The notes under the pieces are model-generated. The model ran no database searches and had not been told where the DNA came from. It worked only from the letters and a program-made list of their open reading frames with translations. Below, in pieces: positions 3,001 to 59,837 of a stretch of 64,000 nt of DNA. This DNA is from a virus (taxonomy: Duplodnaviria > Caudoviricetes). The DNA is taken from the IMG/VR virus record IMGVR_UViG_3300033177_000258; one strand, written 5' to 3'. Numbering within the stretch: position 1 is the stretch's first letter; each line of letters starts with the position of its first letter. Position numbers and translations under genes: made by a program.

Positions 3001-6000
3001 CCGCTCATTCGATGAGGTTGCCACACACGCCCGCAACCTGAGCGCCGTGTTTGACGAGCTGGCCCGAGACGCTCGCGGCGCCGGCAACGCCATGACTGAT
3101 GAGGGCGCGTTCTACGGTGAAGTCGGCCGCGAGAAGATGCGGGTCGCGGGCCAAGAGGTTGGCGTGCGCTTCCTCCGCACTGCTGGCGGCGAAGTCATCG
3201 CGTCTCCAGAAATGGGACGCTCCATCCAGGCACTGCCCACACCCCAGGCACACGCTGAGGTCCAGAACCTGCTCAGGATGAGGGCCCAGGAAATCGAGAA
3301 GAGCCTGGACGCTCTCTCACAGGTTCCTGGCATCGGTAACCTGCGCAGCATGGGGCGTGTCTACGACAAGGTTCCGGTCCAGTGGACCAGCCCTGGCGGG
3401 CACACTCTCCTCGAACAGCAGTACAGCATGACGCAGACGGCTCGCGGCGTCAAGGCCATCCCTGAGCAGGGGCAGCTCGGCTTCGCTCGTGTGGGCGGAG
3501 ACATCACCAACGCCATCGAGAAGGTTGGTCTGTGGGCGGTAGCCACCGGCGCCGTCTACAACTTCATGGCGGCGGTTCGTGGCGCCTACAGCCTCATGAC
3601 CAAGTTCGAAGAAGAGCTGGCCACCAGCCGCGTTCTGCAGCCCGGCTACAGCGACCTGGGGCGCGTGCGCAAAGAGTTCATCGGCATCGCCAATGACTAC
3701 GGCCAGTCTCTGACCAACGTTACCCAGGCGGCTCACCTCTGGGAGCGCCAGTACAAGAACGTCTACCAGGTCCTGGAACTCACCCGCGAGAGCATCAAGC
3801 TCTCCAAGGTGGACAACATTGACTTGGCCCAGGCTAACAAGTACCTCGAAGCCACCATTAACGAAATGGGCTTCGCGGCATCTGATGTTGGCCGCATCGT
3901 TGATAGCTGGACCAACGTCACCAACAACGCCCAGGTTACGATGGAAGACCTGGCTGAGGGTGTGGCTCGGGCCGGCGCCTCGGCCAAGATGGCCGGCGTT
4001 GACTTCGACACGCTCAACGGTCTTATCGCTGGCGGCGTGCGCGCCACTGGCGCCGCTGGTTCCGAAATCGGGAACATGCTCAAGACCGTGTTCGCGAAGA
4101 TGTACACGACGGACGCGGCTCGTGAGCTCAACCAGATTGGTGTCGCCACTCATGAAGTCGTCAACGGCGTGCGAGAGTTGCGCCCGGCGCAGGAAATCTT
4201 GGGCGACCTGGCTAGCAAGTGGGGCACGCTCACCCGAGCTCAGCAGGAATCCATCGCCCTGGGTATGGCTGGTGGCGTAAGGCAGGTCAACCGCCTCTCC
4301 GCCGTTCTGGGCGACTACCGCACGGTTTTGGATGCTGCAGCCAGAAGCTCCGAGGGCTTCGGGGCTGCCAACCGAGAGGTAGGCATCCGAATGGACACCT
4401 TGGCGGGCCAGTTCGCCAAGCTCAAGGCCAATGTCCAAGGTGTCATGTCCAGCTCGTTCTTCGAGGGCGGCGGCCTCAATATTGCGCGAAGCGGCGTCAG
4501 CGTCGCGCAGAATGTCGTCGGCGCTGTAAGCGCAGCTCCGCCCATGGCTCAGGGCGTTCTTGTCAACTCCCTCTACGGCATCGCTGGTGTGACCGGCCTC
4601 AACATGATGTCCCGCATCTTTGGGGGAGAGGCCGCTCTCAACATGGGCCACTTACGCATGCTGGCCAACGCAGGCCGAGCAGTGGGTCCCGTAGGAGCTG
4701 TTGAGACCGGAGTTGGGGGCGTCATCAATGCAGGAGCCAAGGCGGTAGGCGCGGCTGGGTCAGCAGTTTCTGGGTGGCTGGGTCGCAACAGCTTCGGGCG
4801 AGCCCTGCAGGAGGGTTACCGCCTGACGGCTCGTTCCCCCATTGTCGCTGCCGAGGCGGCCGAGGCGGTAGCCGCTCGTGGCGCCGTGGAAGGCTTCACG
4901 AGTTCGCTTCTGGGTGGCACTTCTATCATCGGCGGCTTCATCGGCCACATCAAGAACATGAGCCGCGTCATGGCCATCGTGATATCCGCTGTCGGCCTGC
5001 TGACCGGGGTAGGGGTTGCCGCCCACTATCTGAAGACCACGCCCGAAGAGCGCGAAATCGAGCGGGTACAGAACCGCCAGATTCGCCTGCGGCCCCTCTA
5101 TGAGGCTCGCGAGCGGGTAGACCAAATCAACCAGGACGAACGCAAGTTCGGGGCTCTTGGTATCGCCCAAGTCATTGAGCGCGACGAGCTCCAGCGTCGC
5201 ATACAGGAACTCGGGTACAAGTTTGGAGTTGGCGATGGCAGCGGCGTTGTGGGGCTCGATAGCGCATCCAAGCAGGCCGCGCTCAACGCCTACGCTGGGG
5301 CTATCGGTGACATGAGCCGAGGCCGTGGCACCGAGCGCTTGTCTGCCCTTGGAGCCACAGTTAGAGGACTCACTACCTGGGTCCCCGCCAACGAAGGCGG
5401 CATGACCGGCATCCGTCAGTCGCTGGACCTGCGCGATATGGCGGTAACCATCGGCGGCCAAAAGGCCGGGGCAGACCCCAAGCTCCAGAACCAATTGATG
5501 GCTGGGCACATGGGTGAAGCTACCCGTGAAGTCGCTATGCGTCTCGGCATCGCGGCCCCTCAGTTGCGCCAAGACGCCTCTGTCTTCGAAATCTTCGAGT
5601 CTCTCAGTCCCAATCGGTATGTGGTCGAGGGAGACTCTGCTTTGGGCGCGTTCGGGCAGGCGGCACAGTCTGGCAAGGACGCCATGCTGTACTCCTGGCG
5701 GGGTTCCAACGACCGCCGCACCGACCGTCGCGTCTACTCGTTGGGTTGGGATAATGACGCCAAGCAGTACGCGCTCACCCAAGCCACAGAGAAGGGCGAC
5801 ACTTCCCTGGTCGGCCTCTTCAAGACAGTAGAAGAGGCGCAAAGGCACATTGCTGCCTCCGGCGACAACTTCAAGGCTATCGCCGGCGACCGCAAGGCCG
5901 AGCTGACATTCCAGGAAACCACCAAGTCTCTGGAAGTCTTTGATGACCGCATCAAGCGGCTGGGCCAGACCACGACCGAAGTCATGCGGGTCATGTCGTC

Positions 6001-9000
6001 CATCAACAAGCAGTTCACAACCAGTGGCGTAGCCGTTGGTGTGGGCGCCTACGGCTCCACCGCCGCGAGTCGGCTCACCGGCCCCATGGCTGGCGCCATG
6101 AACCAGATGTACGAGGCCCAGCAGCAGTACAATGAATCCATGGGCCAGGCGGCCCTCGCCCGGCGCAACCTGCAGTCTAGCATCATGAAACGGCGCCGCA
6201 AGGGCGACACCCGCAGTGATGAAGAGATTATCCGCGATGCTCGCGAGGACGCACGCGCCGCCAAGCAAAATCAGGCCGGCGCCGCAGACTACGTATCGCT
6301 GGAAATCTCCGAGGCAGACCAAGCTCTCAATGGTTATCTGGATAGTGCGCGCCGGGCGTTGGATGTCACCCGCCAGACGGCCGAGGCCCTGCGTGAAGCC
6401 GTCGAGAACATCAAGAGCCTCCAGGACTCATCGCTTGAGCTCTACAACGTGTGGAGCGAAGTGGGGCAGGCCGTCAAGGCGAGCCGAGACGCCGCGTGGG
6501 CGATGTACGAGGTGCAGAAGACCATGGCCGCAGACGCCATGGCGTCTTCCATGTCAGCGTCCATCGGACTCGGGGGCTCTCAGCACGAAGCCGCCTTGGC
6601 GCTTGACCGCAAGTACGAAGAGGCATCGTCGCGGGCCATCTCTCAGATTGCCGGCGCCTACGTTGGCGGGATGGCCGCAAACGCCCGAGCCTTTGGGGGC
6701 GAGATGCCCATGGGCATCAGGCTGCCCAGCTTCGCTCAGGGCGGTCCTTCTGCGTACTCGCTGCTGGAGAACCAGCTCTACGCATCCTCAGACTTGGCGG
6801 GAAGCGGAGCTTACAGCGGCGCGCCCGAGAATGTGCTGAACGAAGCCGCGATGACGTTCTACCGCGCTGTGGGCATCTTCGCTGGTGCGGTTGGGGCCCC
6901 CGGTGGAAGCACCGAGGGTGCTGACACGAGCAAGGGGCGTATCTTTGGGGCGGGGCTGGCCGAAGGCGGGTTCTCTGACCGCATCGTAGCTCAGTCTCCT
7001 CACAAGAGCAAGGACAGCTTCCTCGCCTGGCTCAACAAGGGCGAGTATGTGCTGCCTGCTGGCATGGCTGCCGTATTGGGCCCGGCACTGGAGCAGGGGC
7101 GCACCAAGGGCGGCACCGGCGCCCTGCTTGGCCTGCTGAGCGGTATCCGTGGGTACGCCGAAGGCGGCTACGTTTCTCCAGATGAAGAGACCGCGCGACG
7201 CTTCATTCAGCGAGGCCAGCGCTACGGCTCTGCTGCGGGTGAGATTCCGTTCGGTAGCGCGGCTCTTCGCCGCTCCCCGGACTTGCTCCTCCGCATTGCT
7301 GAGCAACTGAACACCGAACCGGGTCTGCTCCGAGATGGTTTCGACCCCACAGCCGGTAGCAGCTCACGTGCTTTGGCCGACCTGAACTGGCTCCTGCGGA
7401 AGGGCGGGGCGTTCGGCCCGCAGTACACTGATGTAATCAGGCAGCGGCTCGCCGATGCTGGCTTGCCCGCCGCGTCAAACGCAACGCGCTTCTCTCGCTT
7501 GGCGGAGCAGGCACAGGCTGCTGGCCGCTATCACAGTTGGCCTGCAACCACGCTTCGCCGTGTAGGCCCCGCCTGGGATAGCTTCCTGGGAACCATTGGT
7601 CGTGGCGAAGAGGCGTTCATGTCGGCTTACGAGCGCTCATCTGCGGCCCTGGGGCGCGGCTTCAACCGCATGGTAGGCGGTATCGGGGCCGGCATGGACC
7701 GCACATCGCAGTTCATCATGGGGAACGAGGCTGGGGACCTGTTCCCGCGCTTGGGTCGGGGCTTCAACCGTCTGACCTCACGACCTATGGCGTGGGGCCA
7801 GCGCGCCGCCGACTGGATGTTCGAGACTGAGGGCGGCTTCAGGCCAGCAATGGCCGGCATCGGTCGTCTGCGTGCCGGTGCTTCCGGTCGCCTCGACCGC
7901 CTGTCTCAATTCATCATGGGTAACGAGGCTGGGGACTTGTTCCCGAGCATGGGGCGGGGCTTCAACCGCTTGACGGAGCGGCCCATGGCTTGGGGGGACC
8001 AGGCTCTAGACTGGTTCACCAACACCAGCGGCGGCTTCGACCCGGCCTGGGCTGCGGCACGGCGTCTCGGCGGTGGCATCAGCCGCTTTGCCGGTAACGC
8101 GCTTGACCGCACCTCACAGTTCATCATGGGCAACGAGGCTGGGGACCTGTTCCCGCGCTTGGGTCGCGGCTTCAACAACATGATGCGCCGGCCTGGGCAG
8201 TGGGGCAACAGCGCGCTCAACTGGTTTGTCGAGAACGAAGGCGGGTTCCGCCCGCTGGCGTCTGGTGCGCGGCGTCTTGGGCGAGGCATTTCCAACGCCG
8301 CCTACCGCTTCCCTGAGTTCATCATGGGCAACGAGGCTGGGGACCTGTTCCCGCGCTTGGGTCGCGGCTTCAACAACATGATGCGCCGGCCTGGGCAGTG
8401 GGGCGACAGAGCTCTCAACTGGTTCCATGAGACCGAAGGCGGGTTCCGCCCGCTAGCGACCGGAGTTCGGCGTGGGTACGACTCGCTGCGCGGCGCGTGG
8501 ATGCGTCGCGGCGGCCTGCCCGCAGCGCTGCAAGAGCCCGTAGGAATCGGAAGCACCGAGCCCGCCATCGCGCGGCCGGCCATCGCTCCCGAAGCCCCGG
8601 CCCCAGTCCTGCGCCGCCCGCGCCGCCCGGCATCCATGATGCCGCCGTCCACCATGCCCGCAAGTGCTAGAGGCATGGGCGGCAGTGAGTTTGGCGCCAT
8701 GGTCGCCGAGCAGCGGAGACGCTATCGCAGTCAGTTCACGCTTACCCCAGAGCCGGCAGCACCCACTCTGCCTCCGGTGGGCAGCCGAGCCTACTACCAG
8801 ACAGCCCGCCAGTACGGAACTGGCTACAGGGGTCTCGCTGGTCGTCCGCTGCTGGACAACGAGATTGGCTACCTCCAGAGGCTGCCCGGCCGCTTGCAGG
8901 GCATGAGTCGCGAAGAGGCGCGAGGGCTCTACGATTCTGGAAGCCAGGCGTTCTTCGAGAGGACCGGGCGCGCCCCGGCTACTTCTTCTGAGCGCCGCAT

Positions 9001-42937: not shown

Positions 42938-45049
42938 ATGTCCACCGGAGCCTTCTTCCTAACCCCCTCGCGACCGAAGTTCGTCATGGCCCAGTTGGCC
43001 CAGATGGTTGACTGGGGCGCGTTGATGGTTGGCTCTTCCGTGCATAAGGGCGAGGGGGTCAAGGTGGGAGTGCTGGACACCGGGTGCGCTCGCAACCACC
43101 CCGACCTCAAGGATGCCATCTTCACGTTCAATGACATCAGCGGCGGCAGCAAGGATGATGGCGACGGCCACGGGTGCGTTACCCCTGACAGCATGGTCTA
43201 CTCTTCTCTATGCGGGCTCCAAAACATCGAGACCTTGTTCGACGCAGCCCCAGGCATAGCGCACCTTCTCCCCGATGGTTCGGTCATCAAGGATGTGTCT
43301 CGTTACAGCCTGAAAACATTCTCTTTGGGCGCAGACGGACGGTGCGTCCCCTCTAATCTCAGCCACATCCACAAGTTGGCCTACGCCGGAGAGCTGGTGG
43401 ATGTCGTCACCAGACACGGGGTATTGCGTCTTACGCCGTGGCACCCCGTCTATGTGGTGGGTTCGCGGGCGGGCTCCGAAACGGTTAAGAGGATTCGGGC
43501 CGACGAACTCAGGGTTGGTCATTGTGTCGCGATAGCGCGCCAGCCAGCGGGCGAAGTAGGGGAGACAGTGTATATCCCGCTCAGCCGGCGCTGGGTCTGC
43601 AGGTGGTGTGGCTACGAAGCAAAAGGGGGAAAGAGAGCCACCTGTCGTTCGTGCAACAGGAGGAACTGGCATGAAGGAGCATCCGACCGCTCTATCGCCC
43701 TGGATGAACGACTTGCGTATTGGCTTGGGCTGGTCGTGTCAGACGGTCATGTGGCCAAGAGCGACACTTGTGTCTCGTTCACGTCAAAAGACCCAGAGCT
43801 TCTTAGTATCTTCGAGTCGGTGTCCGCCGAGCTGTTCGGTATTACGAGCAGCCGCCCCCCAAGTCATCCCATAGAAACCCGCCTGCACTCGGTTGACGTG
43901 TGGAGAATGCTTGTGGACGGGCTTGGTATTCCGGCCGGCAACAAGTCGCGGTGTATTGCACTTCCTGAGCTTGTGGCTAAGTCGCCTACGCCCATCATCG
44001 CGGCGTTCGTAGCTGGGTTGGTAGAAGGTGACGGTAGTGTGGGGGAGCAACGGCGTGTCCGTATAGCAACTGGCTCCATCCAGTTTGCCCAAAAGCTCTC
44101 CATGCTTCTGAAGACGATTGGCGTTTCGGCGAGCTACAGTGAAAACCGCTCTGAGGGTGGATTCAAGGTTAAGACCGCGAAGCCATCATATTCGGTGCGC
44201 GTTGGCCGCTGGAGCGCCCTAGACGCCCAGCTTAGGTTCAAAGTATCAGTTGGCGCGGGGATGCGCAAGGAGAGAAAAAGCTCCGAGGTGCTGTCCGTGG
44301 GTCGGTCCTCCTACAATGGCCCGTTGTACGACTTCACCGTTCCCGAGCACCACAACTATGTAGCTAATGGCTTCATCGTGAGCAACACCCACGTCTCTGG
44401 CATCATCGGCGCCCGCGACAACGACGCCGGCATTATCGGCGTCGCGCCTTCCTGTCAGCTTGGCATCTACAAGGTCCTGTCTGACACTGGCTGGGGCGAG
44501 TTCGACTGGTTCGTCAAAGCCATCTATGCCGCCCTGGAAGACGGCTGCCAGGTCATCAACCTAAGCCTTGGCTCCAACGAAACCCCTCCCGAAACCGTAC
44601 ACAATGCCATCCAAGACGCGCGCCGCGCCGGCTGCCTCATCTTCGCGGCTTCGGGCAACGACGGGAACGGTGTACCCGCCACGGGCGACGCGGTGGATTT
44701 CCCGGCTCGTTGGGAAGAAGTCATCGCCGTCGCTGCCGTTGAGCGCGACAGGGCCCACTCCAACTTCAGCTCCCCCGGCCCGAGCGTAGCCATCTGCGCC
44801 CCCGGACGCGACATCTACTCCTGCTGGCCCGAGACAGGCTACGCCCTCGACACCGGCACCAGCATGGCGTGCCCGTTCGTTTCTGGTGCGGCCGCTGTCT
44901 ACTGGTCACACTTCCTGGCCGAGGGCCATGAGCACAAGGACATTGCCCAGCTCGTCTGGGCTCAGATGCAGAAGGACGCACAAGACTTGGGCGACCCAGG
45001 CTGCGACCCACTCTATGGTTGCGGGTTGGTTAGAGTCAAGGTGAACTAA
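42938..45049 (+). CDS. Subtilisin-family (S8) serine protease containing an intein
   Basis: VGVLDTG, DGDGHG/THVSGII, INLSLG, AASGN, GTSMACP. Confidence 0.95.
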   Translation: MSTGAFFLTPSRPKFVMAQLAQMVDWGALMVGSSVHKGEGVKVGVLDTGCARNHPDLKDAIFTFNDISGGSKDDGDGHGCVTPDSMVYSSLCGLQNIETLFDAAPGIAHLLPDGSVIKDVSRYSLKTFSLGADGRCVPSNLSHIHKLAYAGELVDVVTRHGVLRLTPWHPVYVVGSRAGSETVKRIRADELRVGHCVAIARQPAGEVGETVYIPLSRRWVCRWCGYEAKGGKRATCRSCNRRNWHEGASDRSIALDERLAYWLGLVVSDGHVAKSDTCVSFTSKDPELLSIFESVSAELFGITSSRPPSHPIETRLHSVDVWRMLVDGLGIPAGNKSRCIALPELVAKSPTPIIAAFVAGLVEGDGSVGEQRRVRIATGSIQFAQKLSMLLKTIGVSASYSENRSEGGFKVKTAKPSYSVRVGRWSALDAQLRFKVSVGAGMRKERKSSEVLSVGRSSYNGPLYDFTVPEHHNYVANGFIVSNTHVSGIIGARDNDAGIIGVAPSCQLGIYKVLSDTGWGEFDWFVKAIYAALEDGCQVINLSLGSNETPPETVHNAIQDARRAGCLIFAASGNDGNGVPATGDAVDFPARWEEVIAVAAVERDRAHSNFSSPGPSVAICAPGRDIYSCWPETGYALDTGTSMACPFVSGAAAVYWSHFLAEGHEHKDIAQLVWAQMQKDAQDLGDPGCDPLYGCGLVRVKVN
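43175..44386 (+). mobile_element. Intein (404 aa) with LAGLIDADG homing endonuclease
   Basis: Begins CVTPDSMV; block B LRLTPWHPVY; motifs WLGLVVSDG and FVAGLVEGDG; ends YDFTVPEHHNYVANGFIVSN followed by +1 Thr. Removal restores HGTHV. Confidence 0.95.
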
Positions 45050-46140: not shown

Positions 46141-46168
46141 CAGGGGCGCCCCGTCTGGGGCGCCCCTG
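46141..46168. terminator. Perfect GC hairpin between convergent genes
   Basis: CAGGGGCGCCCC-GTCT-GGGGCGCCCCTG between phoH and the Ro60 gene. Confidence 0.7.
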
Positions 46169-46204: not shown

Positions 46205-47938
46205 TTAGCCGGGCTCCCCGCATCCGTTGTTGTCAGGGCCCTTGTAGGTGGCCGTGGCAACCTTCCTGATGTAGTCCTCCACGTCCTTCACCATACCATC
46301 CCGCCGCCATCCCCCGAGCAGCTTGAACATGGAGTCGTTCATGCCGGAGAGCTCCAAGACCCACGGGGCCTCCGGGAAGTCCAGGGTGCCGTAGCCGCCC
46401 AGGCACACGTTGACCAGCTTCATGCCGGGGTTGCGGTGCCGGAGCATCTTCAGAGGCTCGCTCTGGAACACCGTGTCGCCCCGGTAGTACGCCTGGCACG
46501 GGCGGGTCTCCCCTACCTGCTTGCGCGGCACGCGCTGGGTGCCCGGCAGCCAGCTCTCGTTGTCAGTCAGCGCGAACACCATGTCGTACTTGTTACCCGT
46601 CAGGGCTCCTTCGTACAGGGCGTTGGTGACCGACGTGGCACCCCCAGCCTGCGGGATGGCGTCCATGATGGCGCCGATACCGTAGGACGGGTCCACATTG
46701 ACGCGGAACGCGCGGTTGTTGTAGGCGATGATGTCCGCATGGTCGGACTTCTTGTAGATGGCGGCCGCGAACAGGGCGGCGATGTCGCGGAGGCAGCGTT
46801 CGCTCTTCTCCGATACCTTCTCGTCCATGCTACCGCTCACATCCACCAGGATGAGGGCATTGCCAACCTCCGGGATGTTGCGGCAGGAGCGTACCATGGC
46901 TTCCTCCAGCGCCAGGATGGCGTCGCGGTAGCGTCCACCAGTGATGGTGCCGCTGGCTGCCTTGAGCGCCTCACGCGCAGAGTAGAAGCGGTACGGGAAG
47001 ACCAGGCCGTCAGCCGCCGCCATGATGCGGTCGCGGTCTACCGGCAGGTCGGTCATCTGCAGGATGGAGCGGATGTTCATGACGTAGGCCATCGGCTGCA
47101 TTGAAGCCGCAGCCATGGTCCAGGCTTCCTTGGTGCGCCCGAACTTGGACGTGATGTTGTTCCAGGCCGGCCCGCGCGCGATGTCCGCCACGCTCTCGAT
47201 GTCCTCAGCCAGGTCCACGCGGAACTTGTTCACCACGTCGGTGAGCCCGCGCTCCTGGGCCCACGCCATGTCGAACGTGCGGCCCTCGGCCTCGAAGTTG
47301 ACCAGCCAGTCGAACAGTGCTTCCTGCTCCGGCGAAGTCGGCTTCGGCCGGCTGATGCGGATGGCGTCGCGCATCTCGATGGACCGGGAGCGGCCGTGGT
47401 ACTTGATGGCATCGTACTGCGTGATGCGCTGCAGGCGCTGGGCCAGGAGACGCAGCATGGAACGCGGCATGACACCGCTGTTGCCCGAGAGCATGTTGTA
47501 GGCTGCCAAGAGCTCGGCCGGCTCGTCGGCGCGGCGCAACACCTTCATCCCGAACTCGCGCATCCAGTTGACGGTCTTGCCGCCGATGACGCACGTCTTC
47601 GGAGCCAAGGTCTGCTTCCAGTACGGGTGGGTGGCCATCATGGCCGTCAGGAAGACCGGCATGGCACGGAGGCCCAGCTCATTGCGCAGGTAGGCCGCCA
47701 ACCCCATGACGTACTCGGGGCGGTGCTGGCCCAGCGGGCCGTGCACGATGGCGCGAATCTGGTCCATGAGCTGGTCGCCCTGCTGGTAGTAACGGTCCTC
47801 CACGAAGTTCGTGGCCGTCATGAGCAGGAGCTTCTTCTCATCGGTCTGGGGCTCCCAGGCCGGTCCCCCGGCCAGGTTGCGGGTGTTGGTGGCCGGGACT
47901 ACTGAGCCCAGGCCGCGCGTCGTGGTTGTTGCCTTCAT
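46205..47938 (-). CDS. rsr: Ro60 orthologue (TROVE plus vWA domains)
   Basis: TRNLAGGPAW, LAAYLRNELGLR, RADEPAELLA, IKY...MRDAIRISRPKP, A.VMNIR, FPYRFYSA; vWA MIDAS LVDVSGSM and LTDNESW. Confidence 0.93.
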   Translation of the reverse strand: MKATTTTRGLGSVVPATNTRNLAGGPAWEPQTDEKKLLLMTATNFVEDRYYQQGDQLMDQIRAIVHGPLGQHRPEYVMGLAAYLRNELGLRAMPVFLTAMMATHPYWKQTLAPKTCVIGGKTVNWMREFGMKVLRRADEPAELLAAYNMLSGNSGVMPRSMLRLLAQRLQRITQYDAIKYHGRSRSIEMRDAIRISRPKPTSPEQEALFDWLVNFEAEGRTFDMAWAQERGLTDVVNKFRVDLAEDIESVADIARGPAWNNITSKFGRTKEAWTMAAASMQPMAYVMNIRSILQMTDLPVDRDRIMAAADGLVFPYRFYSAREALKAASGTITGGRYRDAILALEEAMVRSCRNIPEVGNALILVDVSGSMDEKVSEKSERCLRDIAALFAAAIYKKSDHADIIAYNNRAFRVNVDPSYGIGAIMDAIPQAGGATSVTNALYEGALTGNKYDMVFALTDNESWLPGTQRVPRKQVGETRPCQAYYRGDTVFQSEPLKMLRHRNPGMKLVNVCLGGYGTLDFPEAPWVLELSGMNDSMFKLLGGWRRDGMVKDVEDYIRKVATATYKGPDNNGCGEPG

Positions 47939-47960
47939 TGTATCACCTTTCCTCTAACAC

Positions 47961-48076
47961 AAACGGGGCCCTTGCTAACTGATGACGAGAAGAGAAGCGG
48001 CGGCGATGTTGCCGTTCTTACCGAGTGATGTAATCGCAGCCTACTGCTACGTCGTCAGCTAGCAAGGACCACGTTT
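47961..48076 (-). ncRNA. Y-RNA-like hairpin, unit 1 (closest to rsr)
   Basis: Sense GACG-UAGCAGUAGG-CUGCGAU-UACAUCA...AUCGCCG-CCGC..CUCGUC with a long closing stem; same scaffold as units 2-5. Confidence 0.75.
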
Positions 48077-48096
48077 GGCAATGTGGGACCTGCTGC

Positions 48097-48224
48097 GTTC
48101 GTGGGCTGTGCTGGCTCATCGGCGAGGATGGGAGCGGCGGCGACGTGGTATCGGTCTCGATTAGCAGTCGGGTGATGTAGTCGCAACCTACTACTACGCC
48201 GATAGGCCAGCACAGCCTACGAAC
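48097..48224 (-). ncRNA. Y-RNA-like hairpin, unit 2
   Basis: GGCG-UAGUAGUAGG-UUGCGAC-UACAUCA...GUCGCCG-CCGC..CUCGCC; closing stem of about 28 bp; internal CGA-CUGCUAA-UCG hairpin. Confidence 0.75.
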
Positions 48225-48230
48225 AAATGC

Positions 48231-48382
48231 GTTACTGACGAGAATGGATGGCGGAAACGACGAACAGTTTTACTCTACCAACTGAGCTACCGACCGGCGT
48301 TGCCGGTGGGCTGGACTCGAACCAGCGACCTTCACTTACCAGGGTGATGATGTAGTCGTTTCCTGCTACTACGTCAGTGAAC
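48231..48382 (-). ncRNA. yrlA: YrlA-type Y RNA with circularly permuted tRNA-like domain, unit 3
   Basis: Sense order: scaffold, T arm GCUGG-UUCGAGU-CCAGC, loop-closed acceptor-like stem, D arm UAGCUCAGUUGGUAGAGU, scaffold; upstream of Ro60. Confidence 0.88.
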
Positions 48383-48389
48383 AAGCTGA

Positions 48390-48566
48390 GGGACGAGAAC
48401 GGGGTGGCGGCGCCGAGAGTGTATCGGCCGCACTGAGGGTGCGGTTGCTCCCCACTGGAGCACGGTTCCCCATACAGTCTGGGAACCAATGGTTCGAACC
48501 TTAGAGTGATGTACTCGACTGGTTCGAACCTTAGAGTGATGTACTCGACACCTACTACTACGTCCC
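48390..48566 (-). ncRNA. Y-RNA-like hairpin, unit 4 (multi-hairpin cargo)
   Basis: GACG-UAGUAGUAGG-UGUCGAG-UACAUCA...CUCGGCG-CCGC..CUCGUC; three internal hairpins (GGUUCCC/GGGAACC, UGCUCC/GGAGCA, CCGCAC/GUGCGG). Confidence 0.75.
48490..48549. repeat. Exact 30-bp tandem duplication within Y-RNA unit 4
   Basis: TGGTTCGAACCTTAGAGTGATGTACTCGAC x2. Confidence 0.97.
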
Positions 48567-48576
48567 AAAGACGGTG

Positions 48577-48703
48577 AACCGGACGAGATTGGATGCGGTA
48601 GCGAGGGAACGCGATGGTCGCCTGAGCGGCCACACCTCTAAAGCCCCGTGGGGGCTCCGATTGCAGAGATGATGTACTCGCTGCCTACTACTACGTCCAG
48701 GTT
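48577..48703 (-). ncRNA. Y-RNA-like hairpin, unit 5 (promoter-proximal)
   Basis: GACG-UAGUAGUAGG-CAGCGAG-UACAUCA...CUCGCUA-CCGC..CUCGUC; internal hairpins AGCCCC/GGGGCU and UGGCCGC/GCGACCA. Confidence 0.75.
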
Positions 48704-48732
48704 GTTTGTAATGGTTCACGTGCGACAGGTGC

Positions 48733-48761
48733 ATTGTAGAGACGCCGGCGATGCTTGTCAA
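48733..48761 (-). promoter_or_regulatory. Near-consensus sigma70-type promoter for the Y-RNA/rsr operon
   Basis: TTGACA (48761-48756), 17-nt spacer, TACAAT (48738-48733). Confidence 0.8.
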
Positions 48762-48821
48762 GACCCTTTCTGCAAGTTTCTGCAAGAATCTTTCCGAGCC
48801 GCCAGCGGGCACAGGACAGGA

Positions 48822-48853
48822 GAAGTATTCCATGCTCGGCGCGGTAGTGTCAA
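48822..48853 (-). promoter_or_regulatory. Second upstream promoter containing the GGAATACTTC motif
   Basis: TTGACA-N18-AATACT with TG at the extended -10 position (GCCGAGCATGGAATACTTC). Confidence 0.55.
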
Positions 48854-48877: not shown

Positions 48878-49338
48878 TAATATGTCTCGTGGGGACATAT
48901 TACCGAGCCTAATATGTCTCGTGGGGACATATTACCGAGCCTAATATGTCTCGTGGGGACATATTACCGAGCCTAATATGTCTCGCGGAGACATACTACT
49001 CGGGTCCATCGGGCTTAATATGTCTCCTGGGGACCAATTGAAGATGGTAAGAAAACGCTAAATGGTCTCGTGGGGACATATTACCGTGGCTATTTTGTGA
49101 AAATCAGGTAAGGAACTGGTAAGACGCCTGTCCGGGCGCCCAGATTGGGCAGGTGGCGTAAAGATACATAAATAGACGCAGAAATGCTCTCTGCCCAACA
49201 AGCCCCTGAGCCCCAGGGGCTGAGCACGTTTCTCCGAAGAATCGGAGAGCCCCATTGTAATATGTCCCCACGAGACATATTAACCCCCAAAGCTGGCCTC
49301 CCATCCGAGAACCTAATATGTCCCCACGAGACATTCAA
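48878..49338. repeat. Eight copies of a 25-bp quasi-palindrome; candidate origin iterons
   Basis: TAATATGTC-TCGTGGG-GACATATTA starts at 48878, 48910, 48942 and 48974 (32-bp period, last degenerate), at 49016 and 49059 (degenerate), and inverted at 49258 and 49314. Confidence 0.92.
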
Positions 49339-59132: not shown

Positions 59133-59156
59133 CAAACCCGCCTCGCGGTGAACATA

Positions 59157-59837
59157 ATGGGCGTAGGCATTGGTAGCGCGAACTCTGAAGAGTTCGACAG
59201 ATTTCTGGAGAGACTGTCCAATAGCAGCGCGACCGACCGGGTAGATGCGCTGGTGACCTTGGCTGTCAGCAACCCGGAGAGTGCCTACGCCCTTTTGATT
59301 CATGCCCTGGCTACACCCCAGGAGTTCGTGAGCTTCATCGAGCGGGTGAGCCAGCAGCGCGGCATAGGCTCTGGTTTGAAGCGCGCCCTCACGGCTGTTC
59401 TTTCTTCAGCTCCTCCGAACTGGTTTGTTGGCCTGCCGGCCATCGAGTCTTTGGACGGCCGGGAGTGGAGCTGGCGCAAGGTTGTCCAGATACTACATCC
59501 GAAGGGTAGCAACTTCGAGCAGGAGTTGCGGTTCGCCTACATGGCGGGAGCAATACCTGAAGCGGGGCGTATCGAAGCAGAGCGGCTTATCGAGGTGATT
59601 GGCATTGGCAGACCTCATTCAGGTCCAGGTCAAAGGAACACACTGGCGACTGGGATTCGTGGCGTCAGCACCTGGTTTCAACCAGTACAAGCAGGAGGAC
59701 CTGGAGACATTGTGCGAGCAGGCGGGGGCGACGCTGATGGCGATGCTGCTGATGCCTCAGCATGCTCAGGAGAGCTTCCAGATGCTGAGGGACATGCAGT
59801 TCCGCCTGGCGGAGAAAGCCCAGAACCAGTTGGATAG
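59157..59837 (+). CDS. Truncated TROVE-domain-like protein (mini-Ro)
   Basis: RGIGSGLKRAL...WSWRKVVQILHPKGSNFEQELRFAYM resembles TROVE helices (compare RDAIRISRPKPTSPEQEALFDWL in rsr). No vWA domain; the last ~80 codons overlap the next ORF. Confidence 0.55.
   Translation: MGVGIGSANSEEFDRFLERLSNSSATDRVDALVTLAVSNPESAYALLIHALATPQEFVSFIERVSQQRGIGSGLKRALTAVLSSAPPNWFVGLPAIESLDGREWSWRKVVQILHPKGSNFEQELRFAYMAGAIPEAGRIEAERLIEVIGIGRPHSGPGQRNTLATGIRGVSTWFQPVQAGGPGDIVRAGGGDADGDAADASACSGELPDAEGHAVPPGGESPEPVG

What the first reader, a model, noticed from the sequence alone, without database searches (positions are those of the whole stretch)
46205..48853. Phage operon of five modular Y-RNA-like RNAs feeding a Ro60 gene
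Seen: between a TTGACA-N17-TACAAT promoter and the Ro60 ATG lie five hairpins sharing the scaffold 5'-GRCG-UAGYAGYAGG-[7-nt stem]-UACAUCA-[variable cargo]-[stem']-CCGC-(Y-rich)-CUCGYC-3'. The inner stem co-varies (CAGCGAG/CUCGCUA, UGUCGAG/CUCGGCG, AAACGAC/GUCGUUU, UUGCGAC/GUCGCCG, CUGCGAU/AUCGCCG), as do the closing stems. The cargo is unrelated between units, ranging from about 20 nt to multi-hairpin or tRNA-like. Established: bacterial Ro60 binds a Y-RNA stem while the distal module tethers effectors (PNPase in Deinococcus), and Ro60/YrlA pairs occur in some phages. Inference: this is a constant handle with interchangeable payloads, giving one phage protein up to five RNPs early in infection. 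Four of the units lack the tRNA module and would probably be missed by YrlA models.
Basis: partly seen in the sequence, partly recalled or inferred. Interest (0 to 1): 0.85.

Follow-up and report, generated by a model that had tools for sequence, protein, structure and literature searches.

The report
Five Y-RNA-like units before phage Ro60
A large uncultured phage encodes a Ro60-type ring protein preceded by five small structured RNAs that share one conserved "handle" but carry unrelated tips, which extends the known Ro60/Y-RNA pairing to a set of five apparently co-transcribed RNAs, though neither expression nor binding has been tested.

Summary
On the minus strand, a near-consensus sigma-70 promoter (48761-48733) is followed by five tandem units (48698-47960). 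Next comes a 577-aa gene whose predicted fold matches only Ro60 structures.

Both helices of the scaffold covary: 95% of cells pair and 8 of 20 pairs show compensatory changes. A model built without unit 2 still finds unit 2. Only unit 3 carries a YrlA-type permuted tRNA, and it scores below Rfam's threshold.

No sister locus could be fetched. However, the same handle layout (closing helix, UAGU, 7-bp helix, UAC(A/U)UC, cargo, ...CU, closing helix) sits beside the TROVE genes of two public crAss-like phages. In cr112_1, two of its six units carry it in permuted form. This marks the handle as a self-contained module linked to phage Ro60 genes.

It differs from YrlA: there is no CGAA motif and no Rfam hit. 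I read it as a new variant of Ro60/Y-RNA systems. This scan has already reported similar arrays (4-8 RNAs) beside phage Ro60-like genes on other DNA.

Expression, processing, binding, separate partners and early timing all remain inference.

The parts
48733..48761 (-). Sigma-70-type promoter TTGACA-N17-TACAAT. The transcript would start about 25 nt before unit 1.
   Evidence: 11 of 12 positions. No other promoter-like site lies between it and the Ro60 start.
48822..48831 (-). Exact copy of the phage's recurring GGAATACTTC motif, overlapping a second promoter-like site (48853..48824). It may be a second, phage-specific promoter for the same operon.
   Evidence: 9 copies in the window against 1.6 expected.
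48581..48698 (-). Unit 1: handle plus 64-nt cargo of two hairpins.
48390..48566 (-). Unit 2: handle plus 119-nt multi-hairpin cargo. It contains a perfect 30-nt tandem duplication at 48490-48549.
   Evidence: (D6). Found at 46.5 bits by a model that had not seen it.
48234..48378 (-). Unit 3: handle plus an 86-nt circularly permuted tRNA-like cargo (T arm, capped acceptor-like hairpin, UA, D arm).
   Evidence: YrlA model positions 27-81 match at 48272-48330, 27.9 bits.
48097..48224 (-). Unit 4: handle plus 28-nt cargo, enclosed by a closing helix of about 27 pairs (28-nt arms).
   Evidence: I1; z -7.1.
47960..48077 (-). Unit 5: handle plus 18-nt cargo, enclosed by a closing helix of about 26 pairs (28-nt arms) that ends 21 nt before the Ro60 ATG.
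   Evidence: I2; z -7.8.
46205..47938 (-). Ro60 (TROVE plus vWA) gene, 577 aa, with a purine-rich ribosome-binding site just upstream.
   Evidence: Pfam vWA_Ro60 6e-8. PHROG 850 1e-20. phiLo Ro60 4.5e-24. AF2 pLDDT 85. The top 13 Foldseek hits are all Ro60. DxSxS at D366/S368/S370 is invariant in 39 homologues.
46141..46168 (.). GC-rich 12-bp hairpin between the convergent Ro60 and PhoH genes; a likely two-way terminator.

Best explanation
This is a phage Ro60/Y-RNA operon. One transcript starts at the sigma-70-like promoter, and possibly also at the phage motif upstream. It carries five independently folding Y-RNA-like modules followed by the Ro60 mRNA.

Each module has the same handle:
- a closing helix formed by its own 5' and 3' ends;
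- a bulged U followed by A-U and G-C pairs;
- an asymmetric internal loop, UAGYAGYA on the 5' side and pyrimidine-rich on the 3' side;
- a 9-bp inner helix;
- a single-stranded UACAUCA.

I infer that this handle is the docking site for the phage Ro60. I also infer that the modules are cut out of the precursor. The 26-27-pair helices around units 4 and 5 are the kind of duplex RNase III cleaves, and cutting there would also free the Ro60 mRNA. The variable distal parts, one tRNA mimic and four unrelated hairpin sets, would give the resulting particles different partners or targets.

Shown here: the protein's fold, the repeat architecture, covariation in both helices, and the recurrence of the handle beside TROVE genes in crAss-like phages. 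Inferred: transcription as one unit, processing, Ro60 binding, and distinct partners.
For: - Protein: the fold matches Ro60 only. It has sequence matches to phiLo Ro60 and PHROG 850. Four of the seven basic residues that the phiLo study mutated or placed at the RNA align with basic residues here. This comes from the alignment read against PMC12135203, with a numbering offset that I inferred.
- Same strand, with no promoter-like or terminator-like site between the promoter and the ATG. The whole 798-nt leader folds into five separate domains, z -6.75.
- The handle is conserved while the cargo is unrelated. The helices covary. A leave-one-out model detects U2.
- U3 carries the YrlA tRNA-like core in the YrlA order. 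Known actinophage Ro60 loci also give only sub-threshold YrlA hits of 31-43 bits.
- The same handle layout lies next to TROVE genes in crAss-like phages cr112_1 (six units) and cr111_1 (one unit), with unit-specific helices.
- In two cr112_1 units the closing helix is capped by a short loop and the tRNA ends are open, so the handle behaves as a portable module.
- The motif TAGT-N11-13-TACWTCA occurs 5 times in that 8-kb locus, against 5 times in 653 kb of unrelated phage DNA.
- Precedent: M. smegmatis YrlA and YrlB are processed from one precursor upstream of rsr (PMC4201824). phiLo Ro60 binds two upstream Yrl RNAs (PMC12135203).
Against: - There are no expression, processing or binding data.
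- The CGAA core of the published Ro-binding motif is absent; here it reads CGUA. In phiLo the equivalent A-to-U change lowered affinity about fourfold (PMC12135203).
- No close relative of this locus could be fetched, so covariation within the lineage rests on five paralogues in one genome.
- My models do not score the crAss units significantly (4.6 bits). I also widened the shared motif (W at one position) after seeing them.
- The handle is absent from nine other phage TROVE loci I examined. It does not follow protein similarity: crAss TROVE proteins are among the weaker matches.
- U2's minimum-energy fold does not form the inner helix.
Confidence: 0.68

Rival explanations
1. The RNAs are real and processed, but the shared handle is recognised by something other than the neighbouring Ro60. 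Candidates are a host RNase or tRNA-handling enzyme, or another phage protein. On this view the units act as tRNA-like decoys or regulators independently of Ro60.
For: The handle lacks CGAA. It is shared with crAss phages whose TROVE proteins are only about 24% identical to this one, and it is missing from closer TROVE loci. In crAss phages and actinophages these loci sit among tRNA genes.
Against: In all three phages the units lie directly beside a TROVE gene. The overall layout of terminal helix, bulged internal loop and second helix is that of Y RNAs (PMC4201824). The idea that the cargo starts with anticodon-like loops did not hold up: p is about 0.1, and only one unit has a 3-bp stem around such a loop.
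Confidence: 0.14
2. The array is mainly a structured 5' leader that controls Ro60 expression. Ro60 would bind its own leader to repress translation, or the helices would set mRNA stability, and no stable separate small RNAs with functions of their own would form.
For: No terminator or promoter separates the units from the gene. Unit 5's helix ends 21 nt before the ATG, next to the ribosome-binding site.
Against: Five units with unrelated, well-folded cargo, one of them a complete tRNA mimic, is far more than a leader needs. In cr112_1 the units lie downstream of the TROVE gene and cannot be its leader.
Confidence: 0.1
3. The units are selfish or neutral tandem duplications with no function. 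They could be a decaying repeat or a small mobile hairpin element that happens to sit upstream of Ro60.
For: U2 holds a perfect 30-nt duplication, so duplication is active here. No other copy exists in the window for comparison.
Against: The cargoes share no sequence while the handle stays almost invariant and the helices change by compensatory substitutions. Neutral decay of duplicates would give the opposite pattern. The handle also recurs in unrelated phages.
Confidence: 0.04

Closest known systems
Bacterial Rsr with YrlA/YrlB (Salmonella, Mycobacterium smegmatis; Rfam RF02553; Chen et al. 2014, PMC4201824)
   Same: The RNAs are encoded within 2 kb of the Ro60 gene and on the same strand. 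In M. smegmatis they lie upstream of it and are cut from one precursor. The layout is terminal helix, internal loop, second helix, then a distal module. One RNA carries a permuted tRNA mimic (T arm, capped acceptor-like hairpin, D arm) and the others are plain hairpins.
   Different: There are five RNAs rather than two. The loop reads UAGYAGYA rather than the GNCGAAN0-1G motif. A conserved UACAUCA follows the inner helix. The 3' side of the loop is pyrimidine-rich, where the YrlA consensus is A-rich. U3 scores 27.9 bits against a gathering score of 69 and matches only the tRNA-like core. U3 seems to keep a short anticodon-like hairpin, so the handle joins between the D and anticodon arms rather than replacing the anticodon loop. 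That last point is read from the sequence and was not tested.
Thermus phage phiLo Ro60 with Yrl1 and Yrl2 (PMC12135203; PDB 9KOP, 9L5Y)
   Same: This is a phage-encoded Ro60 with candidate Y RNAs directly upstream. It is also the best sequence and fold match to this protein.
   Different: phiLo has two RNAs, which were identified by their CGAA motif. My handle model finds nothing in the phiLo locus. Protein identity is about 20-28%.
Unannotated RNA arrays beside TROVE genes of crAss-like phages cr112_1 (NC_055881) and cr111_1 (NC_055880)
   Same: The handle has the same order of parts: closing helix, UAGU(G/A), 7-bp inner helix, U(U)AC(A/U)UC, cargo, inner helix...CU, closing helix. It sits next to a TROVE gene, in several tandem units with different cargo, some of it tRNA-like.
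   Different: These genomes are AT-rich. In cr112_1 the units lie downstream of the gene. Two cr112_1 units have the permuted topology, with the handle capped and the tRNA ends open. My models give no significant score on them. I found no paper describing these RNAs; earlier notes of this scan describe similar arrays.
Deinococcus radiodurans Rsr with Yrn1/Yrn2, and vertebrate Y1-Y5 RNAs
   Same: One Ro60 protein has two to four paralogous RNAs with a constant Ro-binding stem and variable loops that bind other proteins. In Deinococcus the partner is PNPase. This is as reviewed in PMC4201824.
   Different: Those RNAs are separate genes or a shorter cluster, with a different binding motif. No partner protein can be named here.
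Listeria phage CKA15 (PMC12282133)
   Same: Three very highly transcribed non-coding regions lie within 2 kb upstream of an Rsr-like gene and point the same way. The authors suggested they are Y RNAs.
   Different: No shared handle or structure was described, and I did not compare the sequences.

Membership tests
Ro60 / TROVE proteins | Ring of HEAT-like helical repeats closed by a C-terminal vWA domain | tested here: met
   AF2 model with pLDDT 85 and pTM 0.86. The top 13 Foldseek PDB hits are all Ro60, full length, TM 0.6-0.75.
Ro60 / TROVE proteins | MIDAS motif DxSxS in the vWA domain | tested here: met
   D366, S368 and S370 are invariant across 39 aligned homologues. Pfam vWA_Ro60 6e-8.
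Ro60 / TROVE proteins | Significant match to the Pfam TROVE model (PF05731) or the NCBIfam Rsr equivalog | tested here: not met
   No TROVE hit at E <= 1e-3. Rsr equivalog 20 bits against a cut-off of 900. However, nearly all of the 81 homologues, which mostly cover 60-96% of the protein, carry PF05731.
Y RNA (general) | Encoded close to the Ro60 gene (within about 2 kb) on the same strand | tested here: met
   All five units lie 21-760 nt upstream of the ATG on the same strand.
Y RNA (general) | A long stem formed by the 5' and 3' ends, holding the Ro60 site next to a bulge or internal loop, with a variable distal module | tested here: met
   Predicted folds and covariation in both helices. 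This is prediction only.
Y RNA (general) | Conserved Ro-binding motif (bacteria GNCGAAN0-1G / CGAA; animals GGUCCGA) | tested here: not met
   All five units read G-R-C-G-U-A-G at that position. In crAss units only UAGU is kept.
Y RNA (general) | Bound by, and stabilised by, Ro60 | not testable with these tools
   No RNA-protein prediction tool was on hand.
YrlA (Rfam RF02553) | Score at or above the family's gathering score of 69 bits | tested here: not met
   27.9 bits, U3 only, model positions 27-81. Known actinophage loci also score only 31-43 bits.
YrlA (Rfam RF02553) | tRNA-like domain in the order T arm, capped acceptor-like hairpin, D arm | tested here: met
   Met for U3 only (alignment). 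The other four units lack it.

The most novel reading that the evidence does not exclude
The handle defines an undescribed, widespread family of phage Ro60 adaptor RNAs that spans crAss-like phages and this GC-rich jumbo phage. Each phage would use one Ro60 ring with a whole set of interchangeable cargo modules, here five made from one transcript, to direct it to different host RNAs or enzymes during infection.
Probability: 0.3. Interest if true: 0.78.

Novelty: new variant of a known kind. Interest (0 to 1): 0.6.

Why it matters
What Ro60 does for a phage is still open. The only biochemical study (phiLo) tested two RNAs and host PNPase. A phage that supplies five RNAs with one handle and five different tips is a natural experiment in how the tips set specificity. 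A short, defined handle can be tested directly by gel shift, and each tip can be used as bait.

The handle's recurrence in abundant human-gut crAss-like phages, without any Rfam family, suggests that current annotation misses a whole class of phage small RNAs. If the handle is portable, as the permuted crAss units suggest, it could also be used as a tag to load chosen RNAs onto a Ro60 ring.

Tried and rejected
- Close relatives of the locus. None in the INPHARED phage collection by DNA. None in IMG/VR by Ro60 protein, handle pattern or the neighbouring PhoH gene (best PhoH match 44%).
- Handle pattern in 185,000 species genomes. Seven hits, all inside one conserved coding gene, so chance.
- Handle pattern in JGI metagenomes. 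49 single hits, and none matched the full model.
- No whole genome is held for this window.
- My handle models found nothing in seven known phage Ro60 loci. On cr112_1 they gave only 4.6 bits.
- No similar repeat arrays turned up beside the TROVE genes of HGTV-1 or the 634-kb uncultured phage.
- Anticodon-loop-like heptamers at the start of each cargo: four of five units have one, but shuffles give p of about 0.1, and only U4 has a 3-bp flanking stem. Rejected as unsupported.
- Cargo acting as antisense to other parts of the window: no match beyond chance.
- A protein-coding reading of the units. Unit spacings are 133, 189, 175 and 147 nt, which are not in a common frame, and the variation is compensatory in the helices. 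Rejected.
- The first alignment and model (A1, R1) misplaced U2's 3' half, so I rebuilt them without U2.
- The MIR8670 hit over U4 is only the long hairpin and is not meaningful.
Full report
**What is there.** The features lie on the minus strand. Reading it, a promoter TTGACA-N17-TACAAT sits at 48761..48733 and matches 11 of 12 positions. Five tandem units follow, then a purine-rich ribosome-binding site and an ATG at 47938 that opens a 577-aa frame ending at 46205. A GC-rich 12-bp hairpin at 46168-46141 separates this gene from a convergent PhoH gene. No promoter-like or terminator-like site lies between the promoter and the ATG.

**The repeat.** The repeat finder reports five copies of a 38-nt block (D3). 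Unit spans:
- U1 48698-48581
- U2 48566-48390
- U3 48378-48234
- U4 48224-48097
- U5 48077-47960

Cargo lengths are 64, 119, 86, 28 and 18 nt. The cargoes have no significant similarity to each other or to any other part of the window. A covariance model of the units scores 67-87 bits on the five and at most 15.6 bits anywhere else in the window.

**Structure.**
- Each unit folds on its own more stably than shuffles. U4 and U5 stand out at z -7.1 and -7.8, because helices of about 27 and 26 pairs enclose their cores.
- The whole 798-nt leader folds into five separate domains, z -6.75.
- The first alignment misplaced U2's 3' half, so I rebuilt the model from U1, U3, U4 and U5. It found the unseen U2 at 46.5 bits, E 7e-11, and aligned it correctly.
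- On that alignment 95% of cells pair (shuffles 80%, slid registers 30-64%). Eight of 20 pairs change on both sides. The covariation score is 0.46 against 0.14, reached by 0 of 500 shuffles.
- The native combination of 5' and 3' inner strands gives 32 pairs. It is the single best of all 120 permutations, whose mean is 24.8.

Two caveats apply: these are five paralogues in one genome, and the alignment was fitted to the structure.

The handle reads as follows:
- a closing helix;
- a bulged U;
- A-U and G-C pairs;
- an internal loop with UA on the 5' side and 7-9 pyrimidine-rich nt on the 3' side;
- G-C and Y-G pairs;
- a bulged A;
- a 9-bp helix;
- single-stranded UACAUCA.

**The protein.**
- Pfam sees only the Ro60-type vWA domain. 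NCBIfam's Rsr model scores far below its cut-off.
- PHROG 850 (RNA-binding protein) matches over the full length at 1e-20. The solved Ro60 of Thermus phage phiLo matches at 4.5e-24.
- Of 81 homologues, one is 99% identical and the rest at most about 31% identical. Nearly all of them carry the TROVE domain.
- An AlphaFold model built on 39 homologues has pLDDT 85 and pTM 0.86.
- Its 13 best PDB matches are all Ro60 proteins from phiLo, Xenopus, human and Deinococcus, at TM 0.6-0.75.
- The DxSxS metal site is invariant.

So the gene is a divergent Ro60.

**Relation to YrlA.**
- At gathering thresholds Rfam finds nothing in the window, and ARAGORN finds no tRNA.
- At relaxed thresholds the YrlA model matches only U3, only in its tRNA-like core (T arm, capped hairpin, D arm), at 27.9 bits against a gathering score of 69.
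- Known actinophage Ro60 loci also give only 31-43 bits, so a sub-threshold score is normal for phage YrlA.
- The YrlA consensus has the same overall plan of terminal helix, internal loop and 7-bp helix. Its loop sequence differs.
- The published GNCGAAN0-1G / CGAA motif (PMC4201824, PMC12135203) reads G-R-C-G-U-A-G here, so this defining feature is not met.

**Context.** No genome is held for the window. Its genes are phage-like: a DnaB-type helicase, an exonuclease, TnpB-like transposase homologues and several proteins of more than 1,000 aa. Earlier notes of this scan describe a jumbo phage of about 215 kb from sludge; I did not verify this. The Ro60 operon runs against the direction of nearly all neighbouring genes.

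**Search for relatives.** I found none by DNA or protein in the phage collection or IMG/VR. That ruled out strain variants and expression data.

**Support from other lineages.** A tblastn search found 94 phage records with a relative of the protein. My model found nothing in seven of these loci.

In the crAss-like phage cr112_1, however, an unannotated 800-nt gap lies just after the TROVE and HNH genes. It holds six repeats with the same order of parts: closing helix, UAGUG, a 7-bp inner helix that differs in each unit, UUAC(U/A)UCA, cargo, the inner partner, a loop ending in UUCU, and the closing partner.

In two of the six units the partner strand lies upstream and the closing helix is capped by a four-base loop. 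The surrounding tRNA-like body then has open acceptor ends, and one of these units scores 50 bits with the tRNA model across a 70-nt insert. That is the circular permutation of this window's U3. It shows the handle is a self-contained module.

cr111_1, from a different genus, has one canonical unit just upstream of its TROVE gene, with UACAUC after the inner helix.

Counts of the motif TAGT-N11-13-TACWTCA:
- 5 in the 8-kb cr112_1 locus;
- 4 in the window (U5 has C in place of the T);
- 0 in nine other TROVE loci;
- 5 in 653 kb of unrelated phage DNA.

Caveats: I allowed W at one position after seeing the crAss units, the covariance model gives no significant score there, and crAss TROVE proteins are not the closest relatives of this one.

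**Interpretation.** The most economical reading is a Ro60/Y-RNA operon with an unusual private handle and five adaptor RNAs. Precedents are two Y RNAs cut from one precursor upstream of rsr in M. smegmatis (PMC4201824), two upstream Yrl RNAs bound by phiLo Ro60 (PMC12135203), and three highly transcribed regions upstream of an Rsr-like gene in a Listeria phage (PMC12282133).

Processing at the long helices, Ro60 binding, distinct partners and early timing are all inference. A phage-specific motif at 48822-48831 means the operon need not depend on the sigma-70-like promoter alone.

**Novelty.** The principle of modular Y RNAs with several per Ro60 is known. What is new is the number of units, the single-operon layout, the non-CGAA handle with UACAUCA, and its sharing with crAss-like phages. 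I found no paper describing any of these.

This scan has already reported arrays of 4-8 handle-sharing RNAs beside phage Ro60-like genes on other DNA. This locus is therefore one more instance of a recurring and apparently unpublished pattern. I rate it a new variant of a known kind.

Noticed in passing
window 48880-49336: Eight copies of a 21-25-bp imperfect palindrome (ATATGTCTCGTGGGGACATAT). Six are in one orientation, the first four of them at a 32-bp period, and two are inverted. All lie in the gap between the Ro60 operon and the rightward genes that lead to a DnaB-type helicase. Chance expectation is 0.03 copies. It looks like an operator array or a replication origin.
   Followed up: partly
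window 48490-48549: A perfect 30-nt tandem duplication inside unit 2. It repeats the inner-stem 5' strand, UACAUCA and a GGUUCGAACC palindrome. It could be a recent duplication, a strain polymorphism or an assembly artefact.
   Followed up: no
window 48822-48831 (-) and eight other sites: The motif GGAATACTTC is enriched in the window (9 copies with at most one mismatch, against 1.6 expected). One exact copy lies about 60 nt upstream of the sigma-70-like promoter of the Ro60 operon.
   Followed up: partly
window 59148-59837 (+): A 229-aa ORF aligns with the TROVE helical segment around the HPKP motif of the Ro60 family profile (hhalign probability 75%, E 2.6e-5, 63 columns). It may be a stand-alone mini-TROVE protein. 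The support is weak.
   Followed up: partly
window 42938-45049 (+): A subtilase (Peptidase_S8) gene interrupted by an intein with a LAGLIDADG homing endonuclease (Pfam).
   Followed up: no
L124 (crAss-like phage cr112_1, NC_055881) 5388-6197: An unannotated array of six handle-sharing RNA units sits after the TROVE and HNH genes. Two are tRNA-like bodies with the handle inserted as a capped hairpin at the anticodon position. Nothing in Rfam matches except a tRNA hit that spans one insert.
   Followed up: partly
L127 (crAss-like phage cr111_1, NC_055880) about 2680-2760: A single canonical handle unit lies in the unannotated gap upstream of the TROVE gene. Further structured, tRNA-like sequence follows it.
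   Followed up: no
window 48318-48347 (-), start of U3 cargo: A 4-bp hairpin with an 8-nt loop containing CUGGUAA, followed by AGGUC, precedes the T arm. The permuted tRNA in unit 3 may therefore keep an anticodon-like arm, which canonical YrlA lacks.
   Followed up: partly
L072 and L074 8434-8455 (-), L095, L106, L107: Isolated matches to the handle motif in unrelated IMG/VR phage contigs fetched through PhoH. I did not examine them; they may be chance.
   Followed up: no
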